Source: a virus. Taken from it: a DNA stretch of 64,000 bases. The position numbers were made by a program, and so were the translations under genes. The notes below the pieces were generated by a model. The model was not told the DNA's origin and searched no databases. It saw only the letters and a list, made by a program, of their open reading frames with translations. The first letter of the stretch is position 1. The number at the start of each line of letters is the position of its first letter. The stretch lies in the IMG/VR virus record IMGVR_UViG_3300045988_175441, positions 1 to 64,000 of that record; one strand, given 5' to 3'. Positions 21,200 to 61,855 of this stretch are shown one piece after another.

Positions 21200-23830
21200 A
21201 TGAGTTCCAAAAGTTCAAAGAAGAAAAAGAAAAAGAAACTACAGAGGTATTACAAGAACGGTAAGAACGTTTATCCTTACGCAAAGGCTTCTAGGTTTTT
21301 GTGGGGTTCAGGATTTACCGTTACTATCCTTGCAGGGTTAATCGTAGCAACCCAACTGATACTGTTCCTGTTACAAAAACTAGCCTTAATGATTCAGGGG
21401 GTAGTAGGATTTAATAGTAAGCTAGGTAAAAACCTAGACAACTTTATCTACATAAAACTACCTTTGGGTGGGATTTTAAAACCCTTATTGGCTGTCCTGC
21501 TGTTTATTGTTCTTGCTTATCTGGTAACTATTGCCTTACGTCATCACGAAGGAGAACTACAGCCCTTTAAAGACGATAACATGGCTAGAGCTATCCGTAG
21601 AGACGTTATCAAAAACCTAGAGCTAAACGTACTGGACTATGACGACAAAGGCAAGATCAAGAACTCTAAACAGGATATAAAAGCTCGTGAGATATTAAGA
21701 CGTATGGCTATTGAAGTCCATACCAGAAAAGAAGTAAACGGAAGTGACTTTCTTTCAATCGCAACCGTCAAGATCGAACGACCAAAAAACAAGGCTATCC
21801 GTAAAGTGCTTGAAGGCACGTTCTTTAAGGACTTACCTAGTGAGTTGACTTTTGCGACAGAGGAGCTGTTTGCCTTCTCAGAACGCTTGACTGAAAAAGA
21901 GTTCTATTTCTTTGAAGCGAAGGCTATCGTAACCGAAGAATACGTCTATAAGATTGAGGAAGCGCAGAAGAAACTACAAGAAGCTCTTGGCAAAGGTAAA
22001 AAGTCTGGCAATGGTTCTGATGAAGTTGAAATTGTTGATACAGGTATTTTCACAAAAGAAAAAGCCTCTTGGGATATTGAGGTTCTGTACGATAAGAAAC
22101 TACAAGAAAAGATCGAAGAACAAACCAAACTTGCAAATGAAGAAGTCGCAAACCTCTATCTTTCACTTGAAACCTTTATCAGTTCTAACGAAAAAGTAAA
22201 CCTGCAATTTGTTAGTATGAGAGCAACAAACTCTAACGCTCAATTTACTTACACGAAGCCAAAAGGTGTAAATAACATGGGTACAGAGCAGATGAAGGAG
22301 AACTTGGAAAGTGACTTGGGTAAGCAGGATATAAATATTACTCTAAGAGCAGGTCAGATTATCATTCAGATTCCACTTGATAATAAGATTACTGCTGACG
22401 CTTACACCAACTTTATGAAAGCCTTTTTTGGCAAGAAAGACTTGCCACCACTACAAGCCTTAGTTGGGGTTGATACAGAAGGTGCACCAAGAACTTATGA
22501 CCTTGCGACAGCTCCACATATCCTGACAGCAGGTACAACTGGTTCTGGTAAGTCGGTTGGTATCAACATGATTTATTTGTCTATCATCTTGCGTAATAGC
22601 CCTGATGTTGTTAAATTCATCATCATTGATCCGAAGAAAACAGAGTTTACACCTTACAAGCGAAGCCCTTATCTCTATACAGACGTTATTACAGATATGG
22701 ACGGTGCTAAAAATGCCTTTAATGCTGTTGTAACTGAAATGGAGCGAAGAAATAGCTTGTTTGAGGAAATTGGGGTTCGTAATCTACAGACCTACAACCA
22801 GAAAGTATCTCCTGAAAAGAGAGAGCCTTACCTTATCCTGATTGCAGACGAGGTAGCAGACCTTATCATGACAAACGGAGACGAGGTAGAGGATTCAATG
22901 CAACGTCTAGGTCAAAAAGCCCGTTCAGCAGGTATCTTGATTCACATTGCAACTCAGACACCACGAGCTGATATTATCAAGGGTAAAATTAAGGCTAACT
23001 TGCCTTCTCAGATTGTCTATAAGGTTGCTAACAGCATTGAAAGTGATATTGCGATTGGAGAATCAGGAGCAGAACGCTTGCTTGGTAAAGGAGACACTTA
23101 CGTTAAGTGGTCGGATAACCCTAACCTTGTTCGTGTTCAAGGTGTATTCCTGACAGATGAAAATATCAATGACATTATTGATTCAACGATTCAAAAATAT
23201 CCTGATGAACGTTACTACAATGAACGTGTACCTATGGACGCTTTTGAAGATGGATTCATCAAACCTAAAGAACTTGGGGATATTTCAAAAGGTTCAGTTT
23301 ATCGCTACGCCATCAAGCACCAAAAAAGTCCTGTCATAGACGAGGACATGGACGAGCAGGACATAGTTATTCCTAGCCAAGAAAAGCCAAAGGGTACACC
23401 TGCTATTGCTTCTGCTCAACCTTACGAAACAACGAGTGTTCACAAAGAGAGTTTTGAGGAGTACAGGAAGCGTTATGAAGAAAAGAACGCCCAAACTGCC
23501 CTAGAGCTAGATGACATACTAGGCACTCGAAAGCGCAAAGTAGAAGCCTTGATAAACCAGATGAACCTTGATAAAGAAAAAGAACAGGAACAGGAGCAAG
23601 AAAAGGAAATTCCACAACTAGATCATGAGGTGGAAGAAGCGATTGAGGAACGTGTCTCACATACTGAGCCTGAGCCTACAACACCTGTTGACAAGGAAGC
23701 TATTGCTAATGAACTCTATCCTGATGGCACTACTCCAACCGAAGAAGTGAAGAAGGATAACTCAATCCTTCCTAAACCAATTCCGAAGGATTGGAAGTTC
23801 AGAAAAACTGGAAATAGAGGGAAAATGTAG
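21200..23830 (+). CDS. FtsK/SpoIIIE-family DNA translocase, candidate type IV coupling protein (876 aa)
   Basis: N-terminal TM segments. Walker A GTTGSGKS, Walker B LILIADEVADL, and IHIATQTPRADIIKGKIKANLPSQIVYKV...GAERLLGKGD, which matches the FtsK motor signature. Glu/Lys-rich tail. Confidence 0.85.
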   Translation: MSSKSSKKKKKKKLQRYYKNGKNVYPYAKASRFLWGSGFTVTILAGLIVATQLILFLLQKLALMIQGVVGFNSKLGKNLDNFIYIKLPLGGILKPLLAVLLFIVLAYLVTIALRHHEGELQPFKDDNMARAIRRDVIKNLELNVLDYDDKGKIKNSKQDIKAREILRRMAIEVHTRKEVNGSDFLSIATVKIERPKNKAIRKVLEGTFFKDLPSELTFATEELFAFSERLTEKEFYFFEAKAIVTEEYVYKIEEAQKKLQEALGKGKKSGNGSDEVEIVDTGIFTKEKASWDIEVLYDKKLQEKIEEQTKLANEEVANLYLSLETFISSNEKVNLQFVSMRATNSNAQFTYTKPKGVNNMGTEQMKENLESDLGKQDINITLRAGQIIIQIPLDNKITADAYTNFMKAFFGKKDLPPLQALVGVDTEGAPRTYDLATAPHILTAGTTGSGKSVGINMIYLSIILRNSPDVVKFIIIDPKKTEFTPYKRSPYLYTDVITDMDGAKNAFNAVVTEMERRNSLFEEIGVRNLQTYNQKVSPEKREPYLILIADEVADLIMTNGDEVEDSMQRLGQKARSAGILIHIATQTPRADIIKGKIKANLPSQIVYKVANSIESDIAIGESGAERLLGKGDTYVKWSDNPNLVRVQGVFLTDENINDIIDSTIQKYPDERYYNERVPMDAFEDGFIKPKELGDISKGSVYRYAIKHQKSPVIDEDMDEQDIVIPSQEKPKGTPAIASAQPYETTSVHKESFEEYRKRYEEKNAQTALELDDILGTRKRKVEALINQMNLDKEKEQEQEQEKEIPQLDHEVEEAIEERVSHTEPEPTTPVDKEAIANELYPDGTTPTEEVKKDNSILPKPIPKDWKFRKTGNRGKM

Positions 23831-33157: not shown

Positions 33158-35788
33158 ATGACAAAGAAACAAAACGTGAAAGTTTGTTACCACAAAGAGC
33201 GAACGAAAAAGTCAAGGTTTAGGAGCAAGTCTGCTCTAGTATTGGCTCTTTTTGTAGTAAATGCAGTCCATACGTCAGGAGTGATACCAGTTATTCGTGA
33301 TGGCGTGATTGCTTATGCTGATGTTCACTACTCTTATTCTCCTGATGATGATTGTGGAGTGAACCAAGACGTAAAAGGTAAGAGCAAAAAAAACAACAAA
33401 GATAGCTCTACCTCTAATAGTCAGTCGTCAGATTCAATAGACGATACCGTTTGGACAAGAAAAGGTACGAAAGCCTATCAAAACGCCATAGACACGATCA
33501 ACTTTTGGAAAGAGCAAGGTCTTTCAGGGGTTGAAATTGCAGGTATTATCGGAAATATTGGTGGTGCTGAGAATACAACCTTTACCCTTGACCTGTCAGA
33601 AGAAGGTGGGGGAAGTGGTGGACTATATCGGTTTAACCCTTCTAGCAAATATACTAGTTGGAGTGGCTTTGATGGTAAATGGTCTGCTCAAAACCAAGGG
33701 GAGTTTGTCCTTTACTCAGAACCTCAATCTGTACTAGCGTATATTAACAAAAAGAACACTAGTCCGTCTCAATCTGCTGAGGATTGGGCGAACCTATACG
33801 AACGACCAGACGCAGGAGCTTTGGCAAATAGCTTGCAAGCTCGTAAAGACGCTTCTGAAAAAGCCTACAAGGTCTTTGAACTAGATAAAATCGAAGGCGA
33901 TTCTAAGAAGGTATCTACTTGGGGTGGCTCAAATGTTTCCCAAGATAAAAAGGTCAAAATCTCGGCAGAAGATGGCAATAAAAAGGGAACTAAGATTGAC
34001 CTTAAAGTTGCTATTAAGTGGTTTGAAGAAAGAGAAGGCAAGGTTACTTACAGTCAGGACGCAGGTAGTAGAAAAGGTCCTCTGCAATATGACTGTTCTT
34101 CCTCAATCTACATGGCTTTAGTCGAAGGTGGAGCAGGTAAGACAGCAGGCGATTATCCAGTCTCTACAGAAACAGAACATGAGTGGCTTCTACAAAATGG
34201 CTTTACTAAAGTCTATGAAGGCAAGTGGGGAGACAAGGGAGACGTTAAAGAGGTCAAAAAAGGCGACATTATTATCTGGGGAACTAAAGGTTCTTCTGGT
34301 GGCGACTTAGGGCATACTATGATTATGTATGACAATGAGACTATTATCCATAGCTCGGCAGGTCATAACGGTATCGCTCGTGACACTTACTCTAAATACC
34401 GTGATGAAGCAACAGACCATCAGACAGTATATGTTTACCGTTACTCAGGTTCAACCAACTTTAGCGAAGATGACGTTGAGAAGGTAGAAACAAAATGTAA
34501 ACCTAAGTGTGCTTACAATGACAGTTCAGAACGTGTGAAAGGCACGAATAGCTCAACAGACAGCAGTACCTCTACTTCTGGTAGTAAAGATACAGCAACA
34601 ATGTTGAATGAGTTTGCTAAAAAACATGAGCAAGCCTATGTTGAAAGTTGGCGTGTAGGTGGGTTCTTACCTTCTGCGTCTATCATTCAAACTATGATTG
34701 AGACTAGCTTCAATGAGAGCGTACCTTCATTCGGTCAGGCTCATAACATGGGTGGAGTTAAAACCTCTAAATTAGAGGACTTCTCAGAAACCATGAAGCT
34801 CTATGGTAAGGACGCTGTTGCCTTTTCAGGAGCAGGAACTACCGTTGGAGACAATACAGGTGGTACTTATACCTACTTCAAGAGTTTTGACGCAGGGATT
34901 GTAGGTAAAGCTGAGTTCATGGCACGTCAAACGCTCTATGACGGAGCGATTAACAACACGGACGCAAAAGCAGTCTTTAAGGCTATTGCTGATGGTGGTT
35001 GGGCGACAGATTCAAGCTATCAAGTCTCACTAAATAAGATGTACGACCAGTACGGAGAACAGCTCAAATGGTTAGATGAAAAAGCTATTGCTAAATATGG
35101 TAAGACACCATTTAAAAAAGGCTCTATTGCTGAAAGTAAAGATAAGGCAGTTGGGGCTAAGATGGGCGCTCATAGAGGTACAGCAGTTTGCGACACTAAC
35201 AGCAGTTCTGGTGGTGGAGACGGTTGGCAAAAAGCAGGTGGTTCAACAAGCTATACTTTAAATCTGTGGTGGAAAAAAGATGACCTACCCCCTGAAATGC
35301 AACAATATGCTCTTGATCCAGAGAGTGTAGGATTGAAATGGCGTTCTAAAGTGGGTTGGGAAGGAGCTTCTGCTTATATTTCAAGTGGATATACCGACCA
35401 ATGTACCACTCTAGCAAGTGCTTTGTTTGGGGCATTGTGGGAGAAAGACGGAAAAGCTATGGGCGATTCTCACGGTATGACAGGTAACGGTGTTGAAATG
35501 GCTAAACAGGTTGCTTCTAAATTCGGTAAGAGTACAACCAGTACACCGACAAGTGGAGATATTGTTTCTCTACAACCTAACCACGTTGCTATTGTCAGTC
35601 ACGTTTTCGATAACGGAGATATTCTTCTAGTGGAGCAGAACGTTCCTAACTATTCAGGTAACGGAGATAGCTTCACTTGGAACTACTCTTATATCACAAA
35701 AGCTACCCAAAAAGCGAAGAACTACGAATTTTGGAATCCATCATCAGAAGGCTACAAAGTAACAAGCAAAGCTAAGTCAGTAGGCTAA
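33158..35788 (+). CDS. multi-domain peptidoglycan hydrolase of the transfer apparatus (876 aa)
   Basis: N-terminal anchor followed by four domains. (1) Lysozyme-like (GIIGNIGGAENTTF...GGSGGLYRF). (2) NlpC/P60-like (YDCSSSIYMAL...GHTMIMYD). (3) Glucosaminidase-like (PSASIIQTMIETSFNES...GGWATDSSY). (4) C-terminal CHAP-like (GYTDQCTTLAS...PNHVAIVSHV). Confidence 0.8.
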   Translation: MTKKQNVKVCYHKERTKKSRFRSKSALVLALFVVNAVHTSGVIPVIRDGVIAYADVHYSYSPDDDCGVNQDVKGKSKKNNKDSSTSNSQSSDSIDDTVWTRKGTKAYQNAIDTINFWKEQGLSGVEIAGIIGNIGGAENTTFTLDLSEEGGGSGGLYRFNPSSKYTSWSGFDGKWSAQNQGEFVLYSEPQSVLAYINKKNTSPSQSAEDWANLYERPDAGALANSLQARKDASEKAYKVFELDKIEGDSKKVSTWGGSNVSQDKKVKISAEDGNKKGTKIDLKVAIKWFEEREGKVTYSQDAGSRKGPLQYDCSSSIYMALVEGGAGKTAGDYPVSTETEHEWLLQNGFTKVYEGKWGDKGDVKEVKKGDIIIWGTKGSSGGDLGHTMIMYDNETIIHSSAGHNGIARDTYSKYRDEATDHQTVYVYRYSGSTNFSEDDVEKVETKCKPKCAYNDSSERVKGTNSSTDSSTSTSGSKDTATMLNEFAKKHEQAYVESWRVGGFLPSASIIQTMIETSFNESVPSFGQAHNMGGVKTSKLEDFSETMKLYGKDAVAFSGAGTTVGDNTGGTYTYFKSFDAGIVGKAEFMARQTLYDGAINNTDAKAVFKAIADGGWATDSSYQVSLNKMYDQYGEQLKWLDEKAIAKYGKTPFKKGSIAESKDKAVGAKMGAHRGTAVCDTNSSSGGGDGWQKAGGSTSYTLNLWWKKDDLPPEMQQYALDPESVGLKWRSKVGWEGASAYISSGYTDQCTTLASALFGALWEKDGKAMGDSHGMTGNGVEMAKQVASKFGKSTTSTPTSGDIVSLQPNHVAIVSHVFDNGDILLVEQNVPNYSGNGDSFTWNYSYITKATQKAKNYEFWNPSSEGYKVTSKAKSVG

Positions 35789-35819: not shown

Positions 35820-35827
35820 GCCCTTAT

Positions 35828-35899
35828 GTCAAAAAAATAATCAAACGACACAAAAAAATAATACAAATACTTGACAAAATAATATTTTTGTGATTTAAT
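35828..35899 (+). promoter_or_regulatory. promoter of the rightward transfer operon with operator copies
   Basis: TTGACA (35871-35876), 17-nt spacer, TGATTTAAT. Operators at 35830-35842 and 35846-35864 upstream, and 35878-35893 overlapping the spacer. Confidence 0.65.
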
Positions 35900-36089
35900 G
35901 ATGGTGTAAAGTTAAGAAAGAGTTATTAAAGAAAGAGAGAAACAGTTATGTCACTAAGAAATATTATTGATTCAACAGTTGCAGGACTTTTGGCAGTAAG
36001 TGTGAAAAATGCAGGAGACGGATATAAGAAGTCTAGCCATAAGTCTATTGTGGCGAATAAGCCGATTAAGAAAGATTGGAGTAAATGAA

Positions 36090-36398: not shown

Positions 36399-36412
36399 TA
36401 AGTAAAAGTAAA

Positions 36413-36440
36413 AGTCGCTCATAAGAGAGTGGCTTTTTTA
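36413..36440 (+). terminator. intrinsic terminator (stem includes G-U pairs)
   Basis: AGTCGCTC / GAGTGGCT stem followed by TTTTTT. Confidence 0.5.
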
Positions 36441-36492
36441 TTGCTCTAGGCTAGAAAAATCAAGATAAATCGCAAATTTAATACACAAAATC

Positions 36493-36521
36493 ATAGTAAA
36501 GTAAAAAAACTATGGTATAAT
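36493..36521 (+). promoter_or_regulatory. extended -10 promoter (TGGTATAAT)
   Basis: -10 at 36516-36521. Confidence 0.45.
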
Positions 36522-36558
36522 TAAGTAATGATAATAAAATGTTATTGAGGAGGATATT

Positions 36559-36798
36559 TTGGAACATAAACCAAAGGTTACGATAGCTCAAAGGTGGATT
36601 TTATCAGAGTTAGAAAAGCATAAAGAAATGACCTTAAAAGAGTTGATGAAAGTAACGGAGATTAAAGAGACAACTTTGAAAGTCTATCTTAGTCGCTTGA
36701 TTCAACAGGACTTAATAGTATCTATCCGAATTAGTGGAGAAGAAACTAAATACACGGTCAAGAAAGGAAAGAAATCAGATGGGAAAAAAGAAAGTTAA
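36559..36798 (+). CDS. winged-helix (MarR/ArsR-like) small regulator (79 aa)
   Basis: TTG start after GAGGAGGATATT. MTLKELMKVTEIKETTLKVYLSRLIQQDLI is a wHTH pattern. Confidence 0.55.
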   Translation: MEHKPKVTIAQRWILSELEKHKEMTLKELMKVTEIKETTLKVYLSRLIQQDLIVSIRISGEETKYTVKKGKKSDGKKES

Positions 36799-37876
36799 AG
36801 AAAAGTACAAACAACTAAAAGCTAAAGAAAACACGATAGCTGAAATTGAAAAGGTAAGCGAGCAGGAAGAAACGAAGCATAATTTCTTATACAAGTGTCG
36901 CTCATTCTTAGGTCAGACGTTTAACTTAAAGACGAAGCGTGGCAAGATTCTTGCTTTTGGGCTGACAGCTTGGTTATCAATGGCAATAGGATTCGCTTTA
37001 TCTAACTATGTGCAGACAGGGAACACGGTAGGGGGAACAGTCGCAACTTACAAAGGGGGCTATATCCGAGGACGGAAGCTGTACGAATACTACAAGAACT
37101 CCCTAGAAGGTTCAAACCTAGTTAAGACTACGCTTTTGTACCAGACTTTCGGTGCGCTTTATGGCGATAAAATCACAGATGAAGAAATTGAAACAGCACT
37201 ACCGAACTACCGAAACGCAGGACTAAAGACTTTATTTGAAAAAGGAGACAGTACAGAGAGTATCAAAACTCTAGTACGTCAACAACTAGCCTTGCAGTAT
37301 GGATTGAAAACCAATATTGATGTAACCCAAGAAGAAATGGCTGAACGTTGGGAAACCTTCCACCCTAAAATGAAAGTCCAGATGGTATTAGTGGCAGATG
37401 AAGCGCAAGCGAATGATATTGCTACACAGTTAGGTCAGGGAGTTAAGATTGACAATTTCCTTAAAATGGATCAATCAGGACTGAACGGACAAACAGCAAC
37501 TATCAAGTCTAACACAGAGCAACTTTCTAGCGAGGAGCTAAAACAACTCCAAAGCACCAAAGAAGGGGGAGCTACAGTTATTGAAAAAGACAACGTAGCA
37601 CCAGACGGTTCAATCGTTAAAACCTACTATGTGTTTAAGGTATTAGAAAACCCTGCAAAGGGCGAAAATATGGAAAGTTGGACTGATGAACTTAAAGAGC
37701 AGATTCAGGAAGATAAAGTCCGTATTGGTTTAGGTCAGAAACAAGCGTCCGAAGAAGAAGTTGCAAAGAATACTAAGGCAGTCAAAGACGCTATCAAGTC
37801 TGTATTTAAAGAGCAGGACGTAAGAGTAACTGACGACTACATGAAAAAAGCACTTGCTGATTATCTAGGAGAGTAA
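36779..37876 (+). CDS. PrsA-like foldase / SurA-N-type chaperone, membrane anchored (365 aa)
   Basis: The N-terminal TM is followed by VATYKGGYIRGRKLYEYYKNSLEGSNLVKTTLLYQTFGALYGDKITDEEIE, which matches the PrsA N-terminal signature. The start was trimmed to the ATG after AAGGAAAG. Confidence 0.6.
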   Translation: MGKKKVKEKYKQLKAKENTIAEIEKVSEQEETKHNFLYKCRSFLGQTFNLKTKRGKILAFGLTAWLSMAIGFALSNYVQTGNTVGGTVATYKGGYIRGRKLYEYYKNSLEGSNLVKTTLLYQTFGALYGDKITDEEIETALPNYRNAGLKTLFEKGDSTESIKTLVRQQLALQYGLKTNIDVTQEEMAERWETFHPKMKVQMVLVADEAQANDIATQLGQGVKIDNFLKMDQSGLNGQTATIKSNTEQLSSEELKQLQSTKEGGATVIEKDNVAPDGSIVKTYYVFKVLENPAKGENMESWTDELKEQIQEDKVRIGLGQKQASEEEVAKNTKAVKDAIKSVFKEQDVRVTDDYMKKALADYLGE

Positions 37877-37879
37877 CGA

Positions 37880-38233
37880 ATGGGTATTTTTAAAAAAGTT
37901 AAAAAGAAAATTGACAATACGTTTGATGAAGATACATTACAGAATGACGTATCAAGTGGAGCGCTAGAAAAAGGCTCTATTCTTTGGGGATTGAGAGCTA
38001 CAGTCATTGGTACAAAGAGTGTATTGAACGAGGTTGTCGGAAGGACAGTAACGGTTGCGAACAATGAACGAGATAAGATTATCAACCAACAAGAACCTCA
38101 ACGACCTCAACCAGAAATTAAAAAGCAGGTTCAAGAGCCTGTAGCCCCTCAAAGCTCAGATATGTCAGAGTATGACGAATTTGAAGAATGGAAGAAATTT
38201 CAAGCTATGAAGCGAGGAAAGGGGAATGAATAA
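37880..38233 (+). CDS. hypothetical protein (117 aa)
   Basis: Intact ORF with RBS TAGGAGAG. Confidence 0.6.
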   Translation: MGIFKKVKKKIDNTFDEDTLQNDVSSGALEKGSILWGLRATVIGTKSVLNEVVGRTVTVANNERDKIINQQEPQRPQPEIKKQVQEPVAPQSSDMSEYDEFEEWKKFQAMKRGKGNE

Positions 38234-39114
38234 TGGCAAACGAGGTACAAGAATACCAACAAGTCCAAGAAAACGAATTTGACGTTATTGAAATCCCAAA
38301 GGGAGATTGGACTGGGGAAAGTCTAAAACATGGTTTGGTAAACTCGTATTTCTACTTTGATATTTTCAAAAACCTAACCAATGGTAAGCCTATTAAAATT
38401 TTGTGGGCTGGGTTCTCCTTGATGTTAGTCTTTGCGACAATTTTCATGGCAACTCTAGCCTTCCAATGGACTTCTACAGTCTCAGTTTTTAGTGGTATTA
38501 TTTCTGCAATCCTCGTAAGCATAACGCTTCTTTGGTTGGCATGGTTGAATATCAAGCCTTCTAGCGATACAACTTTATTGATTGATAGTATCCGTACTTT
38601 CTTTTACTTGGTAAAATCAAAACCAAGCCTGAACAACCTACGTTTTAAAGCGCAGGTCAAGGGAAATCAGATTGTTTTTGATAACGGTAAGAGCTATGGA
38701 GAGGTTTATGTGGTAGAGGGTGTAGTCAACAAGTCCATGCTTTCAAGAGACTTAGTTGCTATCTACACAGACCTTGAAAACTTACTACCCAACTTGGGAG
38801 AAGTCACAATGATCCAATCAAGCCAGATTGAACGTGTTGAGTTTACTAGTTTGAAAGAACACTATAGAGAAATCAGACAGAACCCTAACAGTACGAAGTT
38901 GCAGAAGAAGTTGGCTCAGATTAAGAACCGACGTGTAGTTGATGACTTAAAGAATGAGTTGACGCAGAAGGAAGTTGTATTCTTTGTAGCAAACAAGGAA
39001 GAAGAACTATCAAAGGGCAGACAGTTTTTGAGGTCTGCTTCTGAAAAAGGGGTTATCGCAAGCTATGCGCCTATCTCACAAAAGAACCTAGAAAGGATAT
39101 TAGATAGACTATGA
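38233..39114 (+). CDS. two-TM protein in the VirB3 position with a cytoplasmic domain (293 aa)
   Basis: A hydrophobic hairpin (ILWAGFSLMLVFATIFMATLAF...ISAILVSITLLWLAWL) lies directly upstream of, and overlaps, the VirB4-position gene. Confidence 0.45.
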   Translation: MANEVQEYQQVQENEFDVIEIPKGDWTGESLKHGLVNSYFYFDIFKNLTNGKPIKILWAGFSLMLVFATIFMATLAFQWTSTVSVFSGIISAILVSITLLWLAWLNIKPSSDTTLLIDSIRTFFYLVKSKPSLNNLRFKAQVKGNQIVFDNGKSYGEVYVVEGVVNKSMLSRDLVAIYTDLENLLPNLGEVTMIQSSQIERVEFTSLKEHYREIRQNPNSTKLQKKLAQIKNRRVVDDLKNELTQKEVVFFVANKEEELSKGRQFLRSASEKGVIASYAPISQKNLERILDRL

Positions 39115-41039
39115 AATCTATTGTTAAAGAATATGCCCTAGACTATCTAATCAATGGGCGCTATAGAAAGTATTTGTATGTGTTTGCCCCTTACGGACGA
39201 GGACTACAAATGCAGGCAGAAGATATTATCAATCTCAAAGGCTTCCCTGTTATCTCAGGCTGTACGGTAACAACATGGAATAAGCTCCAACTCCTAAAAC
39301 CAGAAGAATATCGTAAGGAAATGAAAGGTTTAGCCAATCTGGTTAAGGTCAACGACCAAGACTTGCCAGACGGTGGGCTTGCAGGAGATATTAAGTGGGC
39401 TACGAATCGTCACAGCGCCATGTATCTTGCTGAACAGTCTGACGACAAAATGTCAGGTGGCTTGTATGTTTGGGAAATCGTTGTTACAGCTCTTTCCAGA
39501 GAGAAGTTGGATCGCCAAATTGAAGTTATCCTAAACCGTTGGGGTGGGGTTGATAACTATATCAGTAAGAAATACAACCCTATCCAATACTTTGAATTGG
39601 TTGATACAGTAGGAACTAACAAGTACAAGCGAGGAATTTTATTCAATCCTCTAATCGTTACTGAGAAAGTGAACACTACTACGCTAGAGAACTATGCGAA
39701 GTTGTGTTTCTTCCAACGAACTACGCTACAAGATGAATTAGGAGAAGAATTTGGATATGATTTTCTAGCTCCTTCTCAGATTGGGGAAGATGGCAACTCT
39801 AAATATCCAAAAGTCCTAATTGACGCAAAGAACTACCTCAACAAACTAGGTATTGTAGCAATACCACGCTCATTTTCACGCTTTGATTATGTCTTTAAGG
39901 ACGTTTATCAAGATGAAGCAGAGACTATTAAGAAACCTCAGTCACTAGCGAGCGTAACAAGTCAGCAAGTGGCTAATCAATTCTTGATGGAAGGTAAGAA
40001 AGTAGTCCATATCGTCCTAAATGACTTTGACTACTTTAAATTAGAAACCCCTCATAATCGAGACACTAAGCAGTTCCAGAATACGATTATCGAGGAAACG
40101 CAGATTATTGATGGCTCACGAATTAGTATCAATCCATTACAGCCTTTTGCGAAGAACAGAACGGAAGAAAAGGAAGAAGAAATCCCTGCTTATGGTCGCT
40201 CTAAGAAGAAATTTAATACCATTATCCAAACCTTGATTTACTACCAAGGCGAAGATACAGGGATAGTTGATGAAGTCTTTGACGAGCTGATGGAAAATGA
40301 AGCGCTTTGGAACAGAGATAATGACGTGATGGTTGACCGTAGGAACTATCTGCAACAACCTGCAAGTAAATATCCTGCTTTTGACCGTGCTATCACGCGC
40401 TTTGAGACCAAAGAAGCTAACCTACGCAGGGATATGAAGATTGATGAAGCAAAAGAAGTCGCTCAGATTAAGAGACGACTAGAGAGCTTCTTGACGAATA
40501 ATAGGTCGCTGATTGGTTCTAAGACAACCCTTGAATTAGACGAAAGCAAGGTCAACTACTACATACGACTAGACAAACTTGATACTCTACAGAAAAATAT
40601 TCAGGTTATCAATCTAGTTGACTTTGTGACAGAGTTCTTAGGAGCAGGAGACCTGATGATTATTCACGGTGCAGAGGTTTTAGATGTCCGAACTTATGAG
40701 TATCTAGCTGAACAGTTTGAGCGTACCTATGATAAGAAGGTGCGAGTGCTATTGAGTTATGACGTTACGGATTCATTGAAACCAAGCACGAAGAACTCTT
40801 TAGGTTCATCTAACGTATTTACTCTTACTAAGCGCCTGTATGAAGAATTTAACACAGGGGTTGACTGGTCGTTCGTAGGTCGTATGAACAATTCAAGGAA
40901 TTACGAGCAGTTAGTAAAGGCTGAACTCCCAACAACAACAAAGGTTGATATTGAATTTGAAGGGGGAGTAGGACGTGCCTTATTCAATCGTCCTGCAACA
41001 AGATCATTTTACTTGATAGGAGTTAAACCGATATGTTAA
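39111..41039 (+). CDS. VirB4-position protein with no recognisable Walker A or B (642 aa)
   Basis: Size, operon position and some patterns (INPLQPF; LMIIHGAEVLD where VirB4 has hhhDEAW) suggest a VirB4/TrsE relative. No GxxGxGK[ST] motif is present anywhere in the ORF. Confidence 0.35.
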   Translation: MKSIVKEYALDYLINGRYRKYLYVFAPYGRGLQMQAEDIINLKGFPVISGCTVTTWNKLQLLKPEEYRKEMKGLANLVKVNDQDLPDGGLAGDIKWATNRHSAMYLAEQSDDKMSGGLYVWEIVVTALSREKLDRQIEVILNRWGGVDNYISKKYNPIQYFELVDTVGTNKYKRGILFNPLIVTEKVNTTTLENYAKLCFFQRTTLQDELGEEFGYDFLAPSQIGEDGNSKYPKVLIDAKNYLNKLGIVAIPRSFSRFDYVFKDVYQDEAETIKKPQSLASVTSQQVANQFLMEGKKVVHIVLNDFDYFKLETPHNRDTKQFQNTIIEETQIIDGSRISINPLQPFAKNRTEEKEEEIPAYGRSKKKFNTIIQTLIYYQGEDTGIVDEVFDELMENEALWNRDNDVMVDRRNYLQQPASKYPAFDRAITRFETKEANLRRDMKIDEAKEVAQIKRRLESFLTNNRSLIGSKTTLELDESKVNYYIRLDKLDTLQKNIQVINLVDFVTEFLGAGDLMIIHGAEVLDVRTYEYLAEQFERTYDKKVRVLLSYDVTDSLKPSTKNSLGSSNVFTLTKRLYEEFNTGVDWSFVGRMNNSRNYEQLVKAELPTTTKVDIEFEGGVGRALFNRPATRSFYLIGVKPIC

Positions 41040-42028
41040 ATAATAATCTTAAAAGGCTATCTCCTCATATCAGTAAAGCAATAAAAGGTGGCTTTGCCTT
41101 CCTGATGGTAGTCTTTACAACCTTCTTTATCGCTTATAGTGTTATTGAAGGGCGTAAGGCTCTAGGAAACTCACAAACACCGATAGGAGAGACGCTACAA
41201 TTTGCACGTTCAGGAGCTAATATCATAGTCAAGAACTACTACACAGACAAGAATCAAGATGTGTTGATTGCTACGCTTGAAGTAAAAGAAGGCAATAGCA
41301 AGTTACCAACTAAGGCAAGTGACTATTGGGTAGTCACTACCTCAGATATTGGTGGACGTAGCATACCTACTTACTTTGGGCGAATGAATACAGACGGAGA
41401 CTTTTATATCATTATCCCTTATCCTAAACAGCAGACCTACACGGTTGCTATCTACAACACTACTACAAGTGGTGGGGATATAAGTTCTAGTGGAGACCAA
41501 CTAACTATTGGTACAGGAACGAATAGTAAAATCGTATCAGATATTACAAGTGACCTATTGAAGAACGTAAACAATCAACAGGCTCAGAAAGTAAAAGAGA
41601 CTGATATTATCGCTTTGAACATGACCTTAAAATCTGCATTACAAGATGACGCTAAGTATAAAATCACTACCCTTGATGTAGATAGTCTATTGTCGCAAGA
41701 CGGAGACACAGTAGCCTTTGATTTTAGGAAGTTCTACACGCTTGCTTATCGTGACCTAGCTGTATCAGTCGCAAGGGATAAGGTCAACAGCTACACAGAG
41801 GAAATTAAAGCTCTCAATGATAAGTTGAAAGAGGTCAGAGAAACCCTAGACCGAAATCCGAATGATGAAGTCGCTATCAATCAACAAAACACGATCAATG
41901 ATAGTATCGCAAGCGCTCAGGATAATCTTGAAAAAGCGAACCAAAACTTAACAGAGATTAAGAAACGCTTTAACTATGACGAAAGTACCTTTAGTGACTA
42001 TACAACGAAGATGTATTCATTGAATTAA
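41033..42028 (+). CDS. N-terminally anchored exported protein with C-terminal coiled coil (331 aa), transfer-apparatus component
   Basis: One TM (GFAFLMVVFTTFFIAYSVI). Overlaps the upstream gene. Confidence 0.55.
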   Translation: MLNNNLKRLSPHISKAIKGGFAFLMVVFTTFFIAYSVIEGRKALGNSQTPIGETLQFARSGANIIVKNYYTDKNQDVLIATLEVKEGNSKLPTKASDYWVVTTSDIGGRSIPTYFGRMNTDGDFYIIIPYPKQQTYTVAIYNTTTSGGDISSSGDQLTIGTGTNSKIVSDITSDLLKNVNNQQAQKVKETDIIALNMTLKSALQDDAKYKITTLDVDSLLSQDGDTVAFDFRKFYTLAYRDLAVSVARDKVNSYTEEIKALNDKLKEVRETLDRNPNDEVAINQQNTINDSIASAQDNLEKANQNLTEIKKRFNYDESTFSDYTTKMYSLN

Positions 42029-42049
42029 AAAAGAAAGGAGAGCTTAATT

Positions 42050-55676: not shown

Positions 55677-55677
55677 G

Positions 55678-58989: not shown

Positions 58990-59159
58990 AAGAAGAAAAT
59001 AGCAAGCTAGTATTTGCTATCATTGTGCTTGCGTCTCTACTACTTTCTGTTTATCTATCTGCTGTTGTGGTAGCTGTTGTAAAAGATGTATCAATTACAA
59101 CAGTTATCCATAATTGGCAGTCAGGAGCGCTTGATTTTTTGAAAAGCCTGATTGAGTAG
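58986..59159 (+). CDS. unannotated 57-aa single-TM membrane peptide
   Basis: ATGA overlap with the upstream stop. LVFAIIVLASLLLSVYLSAVVVAVV. Confidence 0.4.
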   Translation: MKEENSKLVFAIIVLASLLLSVYLSAVVVAVVKDVSITTVIHNWQSGALDFLKSLIE

Positions 59160-59175
59160 AAAGGAAAAAATATTT

Positions 59176-60681
59176 ATGTTTATAGTATATTTACTTGCTG
59201 TAGCCTTCTTAGTGGGTTTATTTGCAATCCTTGGTTACTGGGGTTCACAGATTGATAGGGGCAATTTAGAAAAAGAAATCATGTATCGTCAAAGGGCGTT
59301 AGGTAAACCTATTTTTGACGATATAGACTTTGAGAAGTACGGTTCAATCAAAGAGCTTATACGACTGAACGAGGAGCTAAAAGTCCTACAAAGAATGCAG
59401 AAGGCTAGAGAAGGAAGTTTAGCATGGTATGAAGGCGTAGTTCCAGTTAGTGGGGAAGTGACGCAGAAACAAGGCTTTGAGTATATAGAGTTTGAAGAAC
59501 AACAGGAAGCCCTTATCCCTCTTAATTGGGATTTATCCATCGTGGGGCAAGGAAAAGTTGACGTTGATAGAAAGAAACGTGACAGACGTATTCAGGAAGT
59601 TGAAAGGCTTGAAGAAAAGGTTGACAGTTACTTTAAAAATTGTTTTGGAAGAAATGTGATCGCATTATTCAATACTAAAATAACTTGGAGTGGAGCTGAG
59701 TTCTTTATTAGAATAGCGCTTAAATATGGTTATGTAGAAACATACGCCTTGAAAGCTATAAAAATTGACTTAGAAAGCATTTTTCATACTAACTCCTTAG
59801 AAGTGACAGAGTATGGGAATATTATCCGTATTGCTTTTAATACAAGTGAGATTGAGTTCCCAACAACTCACTATATGTTCTCAAAATTTGCAAGCGAAGG
59901 TGTACCTAAGACACCCCTAACAATTATGGCAGGGATTGATAAAGAAGGTAGAGTAAGGCAGTATGACCTTGCTATGGCAGGTGGAGTTCTGGTATGTGGT
60001 GGAGTTGGAAGTGGCAAAAGCAACTTTGTAAGACTAGCTCTTTCCTCAATCATGCTACACAGTACGCCAGATGAAGCTAAGTTTGTAGTTTATAGCCCTG
60101 CTGTTGATGTGGAGTTCCACTACCTCAAAGGAAGTCCGTATCTTTACAAGGATATACTATGCAAAGAAGAAGAAACACTTAATGTCCTAGCAGAGCTGAA
60201 AAATGAGATTGACCGTAGATGGAAGATGTTTTCAGAACGTGCAGTCTATAGCGTTAGTGAATTTAACTCTATTGCTGATGAAAAAGAGAAATTGCCTTAT
60301 CTGTTAGTTGTACTAAATGAAGCTGAGAGCTTGCTGTATCATAAGTATGATGAAGTGATTGAACTATTGGTATCTTTGACAACTAGAGGACGATCTACAG
60401 GAGTTATTCTTTTAGAAACAACACATAACGCTAGAGCAGATATTGTTCCACAACGTCTGAAAGCCAATTTACCGTGTGTGATCGCTTATAGTCTAGGCAA
60501 TTCTGTTGATAGCTTGATTGCTATTGGAACAGAAGGAGCAGGACGCTTACTAGTGTCAGAGTGCTTGATAAAATGGATTGATAGCCCAGAGCCTACTAAG
60601 ATTAAAACCCCTTATATCAGCGATACAGAAATAGCTAAGATGGTTGAATCCACTAGTAAGAAGTTTAAGAAGTTTTCGTAA
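59176..60681 (+). CDS. second, divergent FtsK/SpoIIIE-like ATPase (501 aa)
   Basis: N-terminal TM. Walker A GGVGSGKS. Walker B region LLVVLNEAESL has N where D is expected. TTHNARADIVPQRLKANLPCVIAY replaces the ATQRP-type motif. The start was trimmed to the ATG after AAAGGAAAAAA. Confidence 0.75.
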   Translation: MFIVYLLAVAFLVGLFAILGYWGSQIDRGNLEKEIMYRQRALGKPIFDDIDFEKYGSIKELIRLNEELKVLQRMQKAREGSLAWYEGVVPVSGEVTQKQGFEYIEFEEQQEALIPLNWDLSIVGQGKVDVDRKKRDRRIQEVERLEEKVDSYFKNCFGRNVIALFNTKITWSGAEFFIRIALKYGYVETYALKAIKIDLESIFHTNSLEVTEYGNIIRIAFNTSEIEFPTTHYMFSKFASEGVPKTPLTIMAGIDKEGRVRQYDLAMAGGVLVCGGVGSGKSNFVRLALSSIMLHSTPDEAKFVVYSPAVDVEFHYLKGSPYLYKDILCKEEETLNVLAELKNEIDRRWKMFSERAVYSVSEFNSIADEKEKLPYLLVVLNEAESLLYHKYDEVIELLVSLTTRGRSTGVILLETTHNARADIVPQRLKANLPCVIAYSLGNSVDSLIAIGTEGAGRLLVSECLIKWIDSPEPTKIKTPYISDTEIAKMVESTSKKFKKFS

Positions 60682-60912: not shown

Positions 60913-61080
60913 ATGCGTACAACAATATGCTATGCAACCATGATTAAGGACGGAAAACCATTCATCTACGAGCTTGAACGTGAGGACTACTCCTTGTTTG
61001 ACTTTGACAAGGAATTTCAAAAGATTGCTAAAAATCGTGGTTGGCAGTATGTAGAATGTGGCACAACACCACTCTTATAG
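60913..61080 (+). CDS. unannotated 55-aa protein upstream of the nuclease
   Basis: ATG after AAGCAGGATTTAAA. MRTTICYATMIKDGKPFIYELEREDYSLFDFDKEFQKIAKNRGWQYVECGTTPLL. First gene after a class-1 promoter. Confidence 0.45.
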   Translation: MRTTICYATMIKDGKPFIYELEREDYSLFDFDKEFQKIAKNRGWQYVECGTTPLL

Positions 61081-61099
61081 AATGTTCGCAGGGGGAACT

Positions 61100-61855
61100 A
61101 TGGAAAAGAAGAAAATCTTTAAACTACTGACCGTAGCAACAGCAATGTTGCTATTAGTTGGTTGTAAGGACGTTCAGAAGATTGCTGACAAGAAAGACAG
61201 TCAGACAACAGAAGTAGCGCAGGTAGAACAGGGAGCAGTCCAGACTTGGAGTATTGATAAGTACCCTAACTACTACACAGTAGATGGCAAGAGTGGTATC
61301 AATCCATCAGACTTTCCAGAAGCAGGTAAAATCCAGTATGGAGAGTTAGACAAGCTAGGACGTACCACGGAAGCTAAAGGCTCACTAACGTTTAAGAACG
61401 TAGAAGGCTCTTACGGAGTGCGCCAGAAGTTTTCTAAGGACGCTGATCCAAGTGGTTGGGGTGTTCAGGATAAAGTGAAAATCCCTTACTCTAACGGTAA
61501 ACACTACAAAGGGTTCTTTTGGAATCGTAGTCATCTTATCGGAGACGCTTTAGGTGGAGACGCTATCCGTCAAAACGTAGTGACAGGAACACGAACTCAA
61601 AACGTGGGAGAGGACGCTAAAGGTGGTATGCGTTATAGCGAGATTAAGGCGCAGGAGTGGTTGGAAGCAAACCATGACGGAACGCTCTACTACGGAGCAA
61701 AGCCAGTCTATGAGGGTAACGAGCTAGTGCCAAGGACTGTTATTGTTTCTATGCTATCGTCAGATGGTACGATTGATGAAAAGGTTATCGTCTTTAATAG
61801 CGCTAATGGTTTTGAAATCAACTACGCAGACGGAACTTTTAAGGAGACAAAATAG
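61100..61855 (+). CDS. secreted lipoprotein DNA/RNA non-specific endonuclease (DNA-entry-nuclease-like) (251 aa)
   Basis: Trimmed to MEKKKIF after GGGGGAAC. Lipobox LLLVGC. FFWNRSHLIGDALGG...NVVTGTRTQNVG resembles the Endonuclease_NS_2 core. Confidence 0.6.
   Translation: MEKKKIFKLLTVATAMLLLVGCKDVQKIADKKDSQTTEVAQVEQGAVQTWSIDKYPNYYTVDGKSGINPSDFPEAGKIQYGELDKLGRTTEAKGSLTFKNVEGSYGVRQKFSKDADPSGWGVQDKVKIPYSNGKHYKGFFWNRSHLIGDALGGDAIRQNVVTGTRTQNVGEDAKGGMRYSEIKAQEWLEANHDGTLYYGAKPVYEGNELVPRTVIVSMLSSDGTIDEKVIVFNSANGFEINYADGTFKETK

What the first reader, a model, noticed from the sequence alone, without database searches (positions are those of the whole stretch)
38233..41039. VirB4-position protein appears to lack both Walker motifs
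In Gram-positive T4SS operons a small two-TM VirB3-like protein is followed by the VirB4 ATPase, the most conserved T4SS component. Here the two-TM protein (293 aa) is followed by a 642-aa protein of the right size. Some of its patterns resemble VirB4 (INPLQPF; a beta-strand LMIIHGAEVLD where VirB4 has hhhDEAW). However, there is no GxxGxGK[ST] motif anywhere in it, and the Walker B acidic pair is replaced by HG. If the homology holds, this is a catalytically dead VirB4, which would be very unusual and would require energy from another ATPase.
Basis: inference. Interest (0 to 1): 0.65.

Follow-up and report, generated by a model that had tools for sequence, protein, structure and literature searches.

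The report
VirB4 homolog without ATP-binding motifs
The 642-residue protein is a true relative of VirB4, the normally indispensable ATPase of bacterial conjugation machines, but it and its whole family have lost the ATP-binding motifs; the same family occurs, unrecognised, in the vancomycin-resistance pELF linear plasmids of Enterococcus faecium.

Summary
ORF 39111-41039 (642 aa) follows a two-TM 293-aa ORF with an ATGA overlap and has no GK[ST] and no hhhhD[DE].

The homology also holds. A 117-sequence family profile hits the VirB4 crystal structure 4AG5 (E=3e-5) and the canonical pHTbeta VirB4 (102 bits). It aligns to the PrgJ family by hhalign (96.5%). An AlphaFold model (pLDDT 86.7) finds VirB4 structures first (4AG5 E=3e-12; full-length TrwK TM 0.52).

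VirB4's GxxGxGKS corresponds to IPRSFSRF (aa 251-258). Its hhhhDE corresponds to LMIIHG (aa 515-520). None of 117 family members has a P-loop there. The gene is under strong purifying selection (dN/dS 0.047).

The neighbours form a T4SS-like module: a multi-domain cell-wall hydrolase, a 1389-aa polytopic membrane protein, an LPXTG protein and an FtsK-type translocase. Many loci also carry an intact two-ring Clp-like AAA+ ATPase. The module recurs in S. salivarius pIKMIN-B502, E. faecium pELF2, staphylococcal-group plasmids and high-GC actinobacterial plasmids. No canonical VirB4 was found in the window, in complete pIKMIN-B502 or in the 100 of 108 kb of pELF2 scanned.

Most likely it is a structural, non-catalytic VirB4. 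ATP hydrolysis would come from the FtsK-like and, where present, Clp-like ATPases; this part is inferred.

The parts
38233..39114 (+). 293-aa two-TM protein in the VirB3 position (TM aa 59-77 and 85-103, plus a ~190-aa soluble C-terminal domain). Its stop overlaps the start of the next gene (ATGA).
   Evidence: No Pfam, NCBIfam or PHROG hit. A homolog sits directly upstream of the family gene in L008 (8e-11). A 288-aa ORF occupies the same position in pELF2 and L002. VirB3 homology itself was not shown.
39111..41039 (+). 642-aa VirB4 homolog lacking Walker A and Walker B (N-terminal VirB4-type domain plus C-terminal HerA/FtsK-type RecA-like domain).
39846..39884 (+). aa 246-258, LGIVAI-PRSFSRF: core strand plus loop at the position of the VirB4 P-loop (NGFILG-KMGFGKS in pHTbeta VirB4). 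No glycine-rich loop, no lysine; the loop is variable across the family.
   Evidence: hhalign places the PrgJ GSSGSGKG here. Family block. pHTbeta anchors. Residues.
39996..40034 (+). aa 296-308, KKVVHIVLNDFDY: family signature (H300 in 101/117, L303 in 102/117, N304 in 89/117), equivalent to the VirB4 'IIVDPESEY' strand after helix alpha-1.
40098..40151 (+). aa 330-347, TQIIDGSRISINPLQPFA: the NPL motif shared with canonical VirB4. N341 is invariant in 117/117.
40647..40685 (+). aa 513-525, GDLMIIHGAEVLD: the Walker B-position strand, with HG where VirB4 has DE (D514 in 114/117, H519 in 106/117, G520 in 115/117; an acidic residue at 522 in 106/117).
   Evidence: (strand 515-519).
41033..42028 (+). 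331-aa single-TM protein, a conserved partner of the family gene.
   Evidence: Homologs next to the family gene or the AAA+ in L001 (3e-39), L002 (5e-16), L008 (1e-43), L009 (9e-30) and pELF2 (4e-18). TM.
42050..44284 (+). 744-aa two-ring Clp/Hsp100-like AAA+ ATPase. Both Walker A motifs (GNAGTGKT, GPTGVGKT) and both Walker B motifs (FIDEAH, VIDEVE) are intact. Candidate energy source.
   Evidence: Conserved neighbour in L001, L002/pELF2, L009 and L012. Not seen in L007, L010 or L013.
44271..48440 (+). 1389-aa protein with a signal peptide and two clusters of TM helices (aa 413-551 and 958-1098). VirB6-like by topology only.
   Evidence: No family hit. An ORF of 1213-1404 aa follows the AAA+ or the family gene in pELF2, pIKMIN-B502, L007, L009 and L010.
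48511..48789 (+). 92-aa two-TM protein.
49086..49880 (+). 264-aa LPXTG cell-wall-anchored surface protein, followed by a terminator-like hairpin at 49915-49948.
   Evidence: Weak similarity to pCF10 PrgC (6e-7).
36734..37876 (+). 380-aa membrane-anchored PrsA-like peptidyl-prolyl isomerase homolog, probably the first gene of the unit.
37880..38233 (+). 117-aa protein of unknown function.
33158..35788 (+). 876-aa cell-wall hydrolase (Phage_lysozyme2, Amidase_5/NlpC, glucosaminidase, CHAP), in the VirB1/PrgK role.
   Evidence: Phage_lysozyme2 hydrolases occur near the family gene in L001, L007, L009, L010 and pELF2.
21200..23830 (+). 876-aa membrane-anchored FtsK/SpoIIIE translocase (GTTGSGKS), homolog of pELF2 TraD. 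Candidate coupling protein and DNA pump.
   Evidence: 6e-59 to pELF2 TraD. TraD is essential for pELF2 transfer (PMC13492992).
23864..24535 (+). 223-aa homolog of pELF2 tra-operon orf5.
   Evidence: 1e-38.
59152..60681 (+). Second FtsK/SpoIIIE-type ATPase (509 aa, GGVGSGKS).
61058..61855 (+). DNA/RNA non-specific endonuclease, homolog of pELF2 tra-operon orf1.
   Evidence: 5e-25.

Best explanation
ORF 39111-41039 encodes a real, selectively maintained homolog of the type IV secretion ATPase VirB4 whose nucleotide-binding site has been lost. The P-loop is replaced by a variable loop and the Walker B Asp-Glu by His-Gly. This is true of the whole family (about 185 clusters at 50% identity). It sits in a T4SS-like mating-channel module: a two-TM protein, the VirB4 homolog, a single-TM protein, a Clp-like AAA+, a giant polytopic membrane protein and an LPXTG protein, with a multi-domain cell-wall hydrolase and an FtsK-type translocase nearby. 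The element is plasmid-like and related to the pELF-type linear plasmids. Shown: homology, loss of motifs, purifying selection, conserved gene neighbourhood, and no canonical VirB4 in the window, in complete pIKMIN-B502 or in the 100 of 108 kb of pELF2 scanned. Inferred: the protein keeps VirB4's architectural role, as the cytoplasmic hub docked on the membrane through the two-TM partner at the base of the channel. ATP-driven work would then be done by the FtsK-type translocase (DNA pumping, perhaps of double-stranded DNA as proposed for pELF2) and, in the lineages that have it, by the Clp/Hsp100-like AAA+ (assembly, remodelling or substrate unfolding).
For: Homology: the family profile hits 4AG5 VirB4 at E=3.1e-5. 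Foldseek on the pLDDT-86.7 model returns VirB4 structures as four of the five best hits: 4ag5_B E=3e-12 TMt 0.70, and full-length TrwK (8rtd_O, 7o43_B) E~5e-11 TMq 0.52 over ~665 columns. hhalign against the PrgJ family gives 96.5%, E=8e-10, over 400 columns. The family HMM hits the canonical pHTbeta VirB4 at 102 bits in two collinear pieces that skip exactly the Walker A region and stop just before Walker B. The only Pfam hits among 66 members are to VirB4 N-domain families.

Motif loss.

Selection: dN/dS 0.047 against a 92%-identical homolog.

Context. The same module is present in pIKMIN-B502, pELF2, L009 (62% GC), L012 and others.

Other P-loop ATPases: apart from a SNF2/ResIII helicase and ParA-type partition ATPases in the window, the only ones in the window, in complete pIKMIN-B502 and in 100 of 108 kb of pELF2 are FtsK-like and Clp-like.

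AAA+: both rings keep their motifs. On plasmids it is found in essentially the same hosts as the VirB4 homolog: 108 versus 99 Enterococcus records.
Against: No biochemical or genetic data exist for any member. The scaffold role and the division of labour among ATPases are inference. The Clp-like AAA+ is not universal: none was found within the fetched flanks in Gordonia pGKT2 (the 'AAA family ATPase' there is UvrD-like), in L010 or in L013. In pIKMIN-B502 only one AAA+ ring has a canonical Walker A. For pELF2 the published essential transfer genes (traC, traD, traG) lie about 30 kb from this module. The module's contribution to transfer has not been tested (PMC13492992). VirB3-like and VirB6-like labels for the neighbours rest on size and topology only.
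Confidence: 0.6

Rival explanations
1. The module containing this protein is not the DNA-transfer channel. DNA transfer is done by a minimal FtsK-type system (as published for pELF2 TraC/TraD/TraG). The VirB4-derived protein and its neighbours serve another envelope function, such as mating-pair stabilisation or adhesion, cell-wall remodelling or protein export.
For: In pELF2 three genes of a separate operon at 71-80 kb are essential for transfer, and the authors describe a minimal machinery (PMC13492992). The module encodes surface-related proteins: an LPXTG protein, a hydrolase and a PrsA-like foldase.
Against: Essentiality of traC/D/G does not exclude a requirement for this module, which was not mutated. 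The module has the typical composition of Gram-positive T4SS operons and is linked to FtsK-type genes in every well-covered locus. A cell-wall hydrolase and a VirB4-fold hub are hard to explain without a channel.
Confidence: 0.2
2. The protein is still an NTPase that binds nucleotide through a non-canonical site built from the family-specific conserved residues (H300, N304, N341, D514, H519, G520, D/E522, R545).
For: These residues are almost invariant across the family. That argues for a conserved functional site near the old active-site strands.
Against: There is no glycine-rich loop and no lysine at the P-loop position. That loop varies in both sequence and length across the family. No ASCE ATPase is known, to my knowledge, to work without a P-loop.
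Confidence: 0.05
3. It is an accessory, degenerate paralog working beside a canonical VirB4 encoded elsewhere on the element, as with RvhB4-II in Rickettsiales.
For: The window covers only 64 kb, and related contigs reach 86-103 kb. Rickettsia carries a second VirB4 with altered NTP-binding residues (PMC2653234).
Against: The complete relative pIKMIN-B502 and 100 of 108 kb of pELF2 contain one family member and no other VirB4-like or VirB4-sized P-loop protein. MOB-suite types 91 of 110 carrier plasmids as non-mobilizable, meaning no recognisable MPF ATPase was detected.
Confidence: 0.05
4. The similarity to VirB4 is only generic HerA/FtsK-superfamily similarity or chance. The protein would belong to another branch, such as a HerA-like, DndH-like or phage packaging-related protein.
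For: HerA, DndH and FtsK structures also appear in the Foldseek list. Bacillus phage proteins top the viral list.
Against: VirB4 entries rank first and are the only ones that cover both domains with TM about 0.5 and rmsd about 7 A; HerA hits have rmsd 13-14 A. Sequence profiles hit only VirB4 proteins. The match includes the VirB4-specific N-terminal domain.
Confidence: 0.03

Closest known systems
Gram-positive VirB4 ATPases of ~650 aa, as in pHTbeta (WP_002311860.1 'tra protein'); also PrgJ (pCF10) and the T. pseudethanolicus VirB4 (PDB 4AG5)
   Same: Same two-domain fold and length. Collinear profile matches cover the N-domain and the segment between the Walker motifs. The INPLQ motif and the Q..N helix before Walker B are shared. 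The gene sits in the same operon position, after a small TM protein and alongside a cell-wall hydrolase.
   Different: No P-loop and no Walker B Asp-Glu. Family-specific signatures HxVLNDFDY and GDxxxIHGxD/E. Invisible to Pfam, NCBIfam and MOB-suite. The 2025 T4SS review states that Gram-positive VirB4 homologs retain Walker A and B (PMC12857230).
TrwK/VirB4 of R388 (PDB 7O43, 8RTD)
   Same: Full-length structural match, TMq 0.52 over ~665 columns. In R388 VirB4 is the cytoplasmic hub bound to VirB3, which is the role proposed here.
   Different: 8-9% identity, a Gram-negative system and an active ATPase. The oligomeric state of the new protein is unknown.
Rickettsiales RvhB4-II (second VirB4 copy with altered NTP-binding residues)
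   Same: A precedent for a VirB4 homolog with a compromised nucleotide site (PMC2653234).
   Different: There it is a paralog beside a canonical VirB4, and the motifs are substituted rather than absent. Here it is the only VirB4 homolog found and the P-loop is gone.
pELF-type linear plasmid conjugation system of E. faecium (TraC 'B4 analog', TraD, TraG; PMC13492992)
   Same: The window shares homologs of TraD, orf5, orf1, the AAA+, the 331-aa protein and the VirB4 homolog with pELF2. pELF2 carries the same module at 29975-42999.
   Different: The paper names TraC as a VirB4 analog by analogy only and does not discuss this module; its text has no mention of AAA, peptidoglycan, LPXTG or hydrolase. 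The window comes from a distant, probably streptococcal relative at 23% identity.
ClpV/ClpB-type AAA+ ATPases used by other secretion machines (T6SS TssH, T7SS EccA)
   Same: The neighbouring 744-aa protein matches TssH/ClpB/ClpA models and Hsp101/ClpC structures and has two intact rings.
   Different: It scores far below the equivalog cut-offs and has no recognised N- or M-domain. As far as I could find, no role in T4SS has been described.

Membership tests
VirB4 (T4SS ATPase; CagE/TrbE/TraC family) | Two-domain architecture: VirB4-type N-terminal domain plus C-terminal HerA/FtsK-type RecA-like domain | tested here: met
   Foldseek to full-length TrwK, TMq 0.52 over ~665 columns, and 4AG5 TMt 0.70. 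hhalign covers PrgJ 237-662. The HMM matches pHTbeta VirB4 residues 22-227 and 307-492. Weak CagE_TrbE_VirB and TraC_F_IV hits in 2 of 66 members.
VirB4 (T4SS ATPase; CagE/TrbE/TraC family) | Walker A P-loop GxxGxGK[ST] | tested here: not met
   Absent from the protein and from the homologous position in all 117 aligned members. The position is occupied by IPRSFSRF.
VirB4 (T4SS ATPase; CagE/TrbE/TraC family) | Walker B hhhhDE | tested here: not met
   LMII-HG at aa 515-520. H519 in 106/117 and G520 in 115/117. The strand is predicted at 515-519. Residue-level register with DE is inferred from anchors, not from a 3D superposition.
VirB4 (T4SS ATPase; CagE/TrbE/TraC family) | Conserved NPL motif and Q/N helix between the Walker motifs | tested here: met
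   INPLQ aligns with INPLQ of 4AG5 and VNPLQ of pHTbeta VirB4. AQfvNvl aligns with AQYFNVL of 4AG5. N341 is invariant.
VirB4 (T4SS ATPase; CagE/TrbE/TraC family) | Encoded in a T4SS gene cluster: small TM VirB3-like partner, polytopic VirB6-like protein, cell-wall hydrolase and coupling ATPase | tested here: met
   Conserved in related loci. The VirB3 and VirB6 assignments rest on topology only.
VirB4 (T4SS ATPase; CagE/TrbE/TraC family) | ATP binding and hydrolysis; requirement for transfer | not testable with these tools
   Needs purified protein and mutants.
ASCE P-loop NTPases, HerA/FtsK clade | RecA-like core with a functional P-loop and catalytic acid | tested here: not met
   The fold is retained: HerA, DndH and FtsK also match. 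The catalytic motifs are absent.
pELF-type plasmid gene set (E. faecium linear plasmids) | Shared core genes: TraD-type FtsK, orf5, orf1 endonuclease, AAA+, 331-aa protein, VirB4 homolog | tested here: met
   phmmer of window ORFs against pELF2 ORFs, E from 1e-17 to 6e-59. Identity is low (about 23-27%), so this is a distant relative, not a pELF plasmid.
pELF-type plasmid gene set (E. faecium linear plasmids) | Linear topology with a terminal hairpin (pELF_hp) | not tested
   The window does not obviously include an element end. pIKMIN-B502 is reported as a linear phage-like episome (PMC7530928).

The most novel reading that the evidence does not exclude
pELF-type linear plasmids and a wider set of 60-100 kb plasmid-like elements of Firmicutes and Actinobacteria would use a previously unrecognised class of Gram-positive conjugation machine. 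In it the universal VirB4 motor has become a non-catalytic structural hub. Its energy-transducing role has passed to an FtsK-type (probably double-stranded DNA) translocase and, in many lineages, to a Clp/Hsp100-like AAA+ unfoldase. This would overturn both 'VirB4 ATPase activity is universal in T4SS' and 'pELF plasmids have a minimal machinery'.
Probability: 0.35. Interest if true: 0.85.

Novelty: new variant of a known kind. Interest (0 to 1): 0.72.

Why it matters
VirB4 is treated as the one ubiquitous, motif-conserving ATPase of type IV secretion, and it is the marker on which conjugation-system detection and classification rest. A whole conserved family that keeps the fold but has lost the nucleotide site has several consequences.

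- These elements are invisible to typing tools: MOB-suite of 110 carrier plasmids non-mobilizable.
- VirB4 would have an essential role separable from ATP hydrolysis.
- A specific, testable gene set is identified in pELF-type plasmids, which spread vancomycin resistance in hospital E. faecium. Their transfer machinery was recently described as minimal, with only an 'analog' of VirB4.

The recurrent Clp-like AAA+ neighbour offers a concrete candidate for how the lost activity is compensated.

Tried and rejected
1. Single-sequence searches (Pfam, NCBIfam, PHROGs, PDB phmmer, BLASTP against PrgJ) gave nothing. Only family profiles and structure revealed the homology.
2. The first AlphaFold run, on a 7-sequence alignment, was unusable (pLDDT 45).
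3. A second word-indexed protein search with alignment A1 returned no new sequences.
4. Megablast of the window against plasmids and tblastn against phages found nothing.
5. I suspected the E. faecium carriers were pMG1/pHTbeta-type plasmids. This was rejected: pHTbeta has a conventional T4SS with an intact VirB4. The carriers are pELF-type.
6. The genome-contig scan gave only 3 loci, and the 117-sequence alignment was too diverse for that tool.
7. 'AAA family ATPase' next to the Gordonia homolog looked like further AAA+ co-occurrence, but it is UvrD-like.
8. A direct MAFFT alignment of family members with PrgJ and pHTbeta VirB4 is unreliable around the Walker regions. The mapping instead rests on hhalign, HMM anchors and predicted secondary structure.
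9. The older pHTbeta papers and the supplementary tables of the pELF paper were not available.
10. Model coordinates are not exposed, so the pocket could not be inspected in 3D.


Full report
**1. The observation**

The window has ORFs at 38233-39114 (+, 293 aa) and 39111-41039 (+, 642 aa), joined by an ATGA stop/start overlap. A hydropathy scan gives two TM segments in the 293-aa protein, aa 59-77 and 85-103. The 642-aa protein contains no GxxGxGK[ST], no [AG]xxxxGK[ST], no GK[ST] at all and no hhhhD[DE]. INPLQPF is at aa 340 and LMIIHGAEVLD at aa 515.

**2. Is it related to VirB4?**

Single-sequence methods see nothing. Pfam, NCBIfam and PHROGs give no hit. PDB phmmer gives only noise. BLASTP against pCF10 PrgJ gives only noise.

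An exhaustive profile search found 185 representative proteins at E<=1e-3, of which 59 are at E<=1e-30. I aligned 117 roughly full-length members as alignment A2. That profile gives several independent lines of evidence.

- It hits the crystal structure of Thermoanaerobacter pseudethanolicus VirB4 (4AG5) at E=3.1e-5. GtiNPlE aligns with GKINPLQ, and aQfvNvl with AQYFNVL.
- It aligns to a 22-sequence PrgJ-family alignment by hhalign with probability 96.5% and E=8e-10 over 400 columns, profile 37-498 against PrgJ 237-662.
- It hits the canonical VirB4 of E. faecium pHTbeta (651 aa; Walker A GKMGFGKS at 253, Walker B MVLIDE at 518) with 102 bits (E=8e-31 in a small database). The match comes as two collinear pieces: profile 36-248 against residues 22-227, and profile 340-512 against residues 307-492. 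The match therefore skips exactly the Walker A region and stops just before Walker B.
- With A2 as input, AlphaFold2 gives a confident model (mean pLDDT 86.7, pTM 0.84). A 7-sequence alignment had given pLDDT 45.
- Foldseek against the PDB returns VirB4 first. 4ag5_B has E=3e-12 and TMt 0.70. Full-length TrwK/VirB4 of R388 (8rtd_O, 7o43_B) has E about 5e-11 and TMq 0.52 over about 665 columns at rmsd about 7 A. HerA, DndH-C and FtsK follow with rmsd 13-18 A.
- Of 66 members scanned individually against Pfam, only two have any hit. Both hits are to VirB4 N-terminal domain families: CagE_TrbE_VirB at 2.4e-4 and TraC_F_IV at 1.8e-3.

The protein is a VirB4 homolog in both domains.

**3. Where the motifs went**

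hhalign places the PrgJ P-loop (GSSGSGKG) on the family segment 'vvIA + variable loop'. Anchoring on pHTbeta VirB4 gives the following correspondences.

| Canonical VirB4 | Window protein |
|---|---|
| GFYLG (pHTbeta) | EEFGY (G215) |
| FIFD (pHTbeta) | VLID (D238) |
| NGFILG-KMGFGKS (pHTbeta, Walker A) | LGIVAI-PRSFSRF (aa 246-258) |
| helix alpha-1 | aa 279-293 |
| IIVDPESEY (PrgJ) | HIVLNDFDY (aa 300-308) |

In the 117-member block this loop varies in sequence and length and never carries a glycine-rich motif or GK[ST]. The four members with an [AG]xxxxGK[ST] match have it at other positions.

At the Walker B position the model has a strand at 515-519. The family signature there is G-D-h-h-h-I-H-G-x-[DE]. 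D514 occurs in 114/117, H519 in 106/117 and G520 in 115/117, with an acidic residue at 522 in 106/117.

The gene is not decaying. Against the 92%-identical homolog in locus L004, dS=0.87, dN=0.041 and dN/dS=0.047. Full-length ORFs persist from 32% to 62% GC hosts.

**4. Surroundings**

Terminator-like hairpins at 35791, 36410 and 49915 bracket a probable unit from about 36.5 to 49.9 kb. In order, it encodes:

- a membrane-anchored PrsA-like PPIase homolog (36734-37876);
- a 117-aa protein;
- the two-TM 293-aa protein;
- the VirB4 homolog;
- a single-TM 331-aa protein;
- a 744-aa two-ring Clp/Hsp100-like AAA+;
- a 1389-aa protein with a signal peptide and two TM clusters;
- a 92-aa two-TM protein;
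- an LPXTG protein.

The AAA+ has Walker A GNAGTGKT and GPTGVGKT and Walker B FIDEAH and VIDEVE. Its best PDB matches are Hsp101, ClpC1 and ClpB, and its best NCBIfam matches are TssH/ClpB, far below the equivalog cut-offs.

Upstream lies an 876-aa hydrolase with Phage_lysozyme2, Amidase_5, glucosaminidase and CHAP domains (33158-35788). Also upstream are a Rep3-type initiator, a ParA and an 876-aa membrane-anchored FtsK/SpoIIIE protein (21200-23830). Downstream lie a second FtsK-like protein (59152-60681) and a non-specific endonuclease (61058-61855).

Among window ORFs of at least 100 aa, Walker A motifs occur only in the two FtsK-like proteins, the AAA+, a SNF2/ResIII helicase and (by chance) the hydrolase.

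**5. Relatives elsewhere**

tblastn finds the protein at 21-26% identity in 110 plasmid records: 99 Enterococcus, plus Staphylococcus, Mammaliicoccus, Macrococcus, Streptococcus salivarius, Gordonia, Streptomyces and Rhodococcus. MOB-suite types 91 of these as non-mobilizable.

The module is conserved across hosts.

- **S. salivarius pIKMIN-B502.** It has the family gene, the 331-aa homolog and the hydrolase, and separately the AAA+ followed by a 1257-aa protein and an FtsK protein. This plasmid was described as a linear phage-like episome (PMC7530928).
- **Metagenomic locus L009 (62% GC).** It keeps the exact order: 362-aa protein, family gene, 331-aa homolog (9e-30), AAA+ (4e-61), 1354-aa protein, with a Phage_lysozyme2 hydrolase upstream.
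- **Gordonia pGKT2 and L010.** These have the family gene followed directly by a 1272- or 1404-aa protein, plus a lysozyme2 hydrolase.

The Clp-like AAA+ is not universal. The Gordonia 'AAA family ATPase' is UvrD-like, and the upstream ORF in L010 is a topoisomerase. No AAA+ was seen in L013.

The E. faecium carriers are pELF-type linear plasmids. In pELF2 (NZ_AP022343.1) the module lies at 29975-42999: a 352-aa protein, an AAA+ of 649 aa, a 1213-aa protein, a 718-aa protein, an LPXTG protein, a 288-aa protein and the 656-aa family member. The pELF2 member also has no P-loop; it shows HIVLN and DIVMIHG.

The window additionally shares homologs of pELF2 TraD (6e-59), orf5 (1e-38) and orf1 endonuclease (5e-25). 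The window is therefore a distant relative of pELF plasmids, probably streptococcal. Its close homologs come from human-associated metagenomes on contigs up to about 100 kb.

In complete pIKMIN-B502 and in 100 of 108 kb of pELF2, the only Walker A-bearing ORFs of relevant size are the AAA+ and the FtsK-type protein. Each plasmid has exactly one family member and no PrgJ-type VirB4.

**6. What is known**

A partial precedent is the second VirB4 copy of Rickettsia, which has altered NTP-binding residues but sits beside a canonical copy (PMC2653234).

The 2026 study of pELF2 identified traC, traD and traG (71-80 kb) as essential and called the machinery highly minimized. It named TraC a VirB4 'analog' and TraG a VirB6 'analog' on architectural analogy only. 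It notes that both lack detectable homology (PMC13492992). Its text does not mention the AAA+, hydrolase or LPXTG module. I found no paper describing this family.

**7. Interpretation**

- **Shown:** a conserved, selected family of VirB4 homologs that lacks both Walker motifs. It is embedded in a T4SS-like module, and it is the only VirB4 homolog found in the window, in complete pIKMIN-B502 and in the 100 of 108 kb of pELF2 scanned.
- **Inferred:** it retains VirB4's architectural role at the cytoplasmic base of the channel, tethered by the co-translated two-TM partner. ATP-dependent steps would be carried out by the FtsK-type translocase and, where present, by the Clp-like AAA+.
- **Main uncertainty:** whether this module takes part in DNA transfer at all. 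For pELF2 only the separate FtsK operon has been tested.
- **Less likely alternatives:** a non-canonical nucleotide site, a hidden canonical VirB4 elsewhere on the element, or mere superfamily-level similarity.

**8. Verdict**

This is a new variant of a known kind, a P-loop-less VirB4 lineage. It bears directly on how clinically important pELF plasmids transfer and on the assumption that VirB4 ATPase activity is universal.

Noticed in passing
NZ_AP022343.1 (pELF2) 29975-42999 = L015: The published pELF2 conjugation study assigns 'VirB4 analog' to TraC and 'VirB6 analog' to a rhomboid-like TraG. Yet pELF2 carries, about 30 kb away, a true VirB4-fold protein (41029-42999), a 1213-aa polytopic protein, a Clp-like AAA+ and LPXTG genes, none of which the paper discusses.
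   Followed up: partly
window 25759-29117 (- strand): Three tandem genes of 362, 366 and 371 aa are paralogs: b versus c at 1e-86, and a versus b or c at about 1e-10. None has a Pfam hit. They lie between the FtsK block and the Rep gene.
   Followed up: partly
window 36734-37876 (+): A membrane-anchored PrsA-like peptidyl-prolyl isomerase homolog (NF003356 5e-25, well below its cut-off) is probably the first gene of the T4SS-like unit. A dedicated extracytoplasmic foldase in a conjugation operon is unusual.
   Followed up: no
window 59152-60681 and 61058-61855 (+): A second FtsK/SpoIIIE ATPase (509 aa) and a DNA/RNA non-specific endonuclease resemble pELF2 TraD and tra-operon orf1. The element therefore encodes two FtsK-type ATPases.
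   Followed up: partly
window 33158-35788 (+): An 876-aa hydrolase combines four cell-wall-cleaving domains: Phage_lysozyme2, Amidase_5/NlpC-P60, glucosaminidase and CHAP. This is one more domain than is described for PrgK.
   Followed up: no
window 1-18500 (- strand) versus 18780-64000 (+ strand): Gene orientation and GC/AT skew switch near 18.5-20 kb, next to a ParA gene (18780-19622). The left arm encodes mostly proteins without any family hit, plus a 601-aa LPXTG adhesin (8293-10098).
   Followed up: no
window 50568-52502 (+): A ResIII/SNF2-type helicase (454 aa) is followed by a HAD_SAK_2 domain protein, just downstream of the T4SS-like unit.
   Followed up: no
L007 (Gordonia pGKT2), L009 and L010 (61-62% GC): High-GC, apparently actinobacterial elements carry the same P-loop-less VirB4 homolog next to a ~1300-1400-aa protein and a lysozyme2 hydrolase. 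L009 keeps the full Firmicutes gene order including the Clp-like AAA+, which suggests an ancient or horizontally shared module.
   Followed up: partly
L017 (pIKMIN-B502 52326-56490): Four 'polymer-forming cytoskeletal protein' (bactofilin-like) genes cluster near one end of the linear S. salivarius episome.
   Followed up: no
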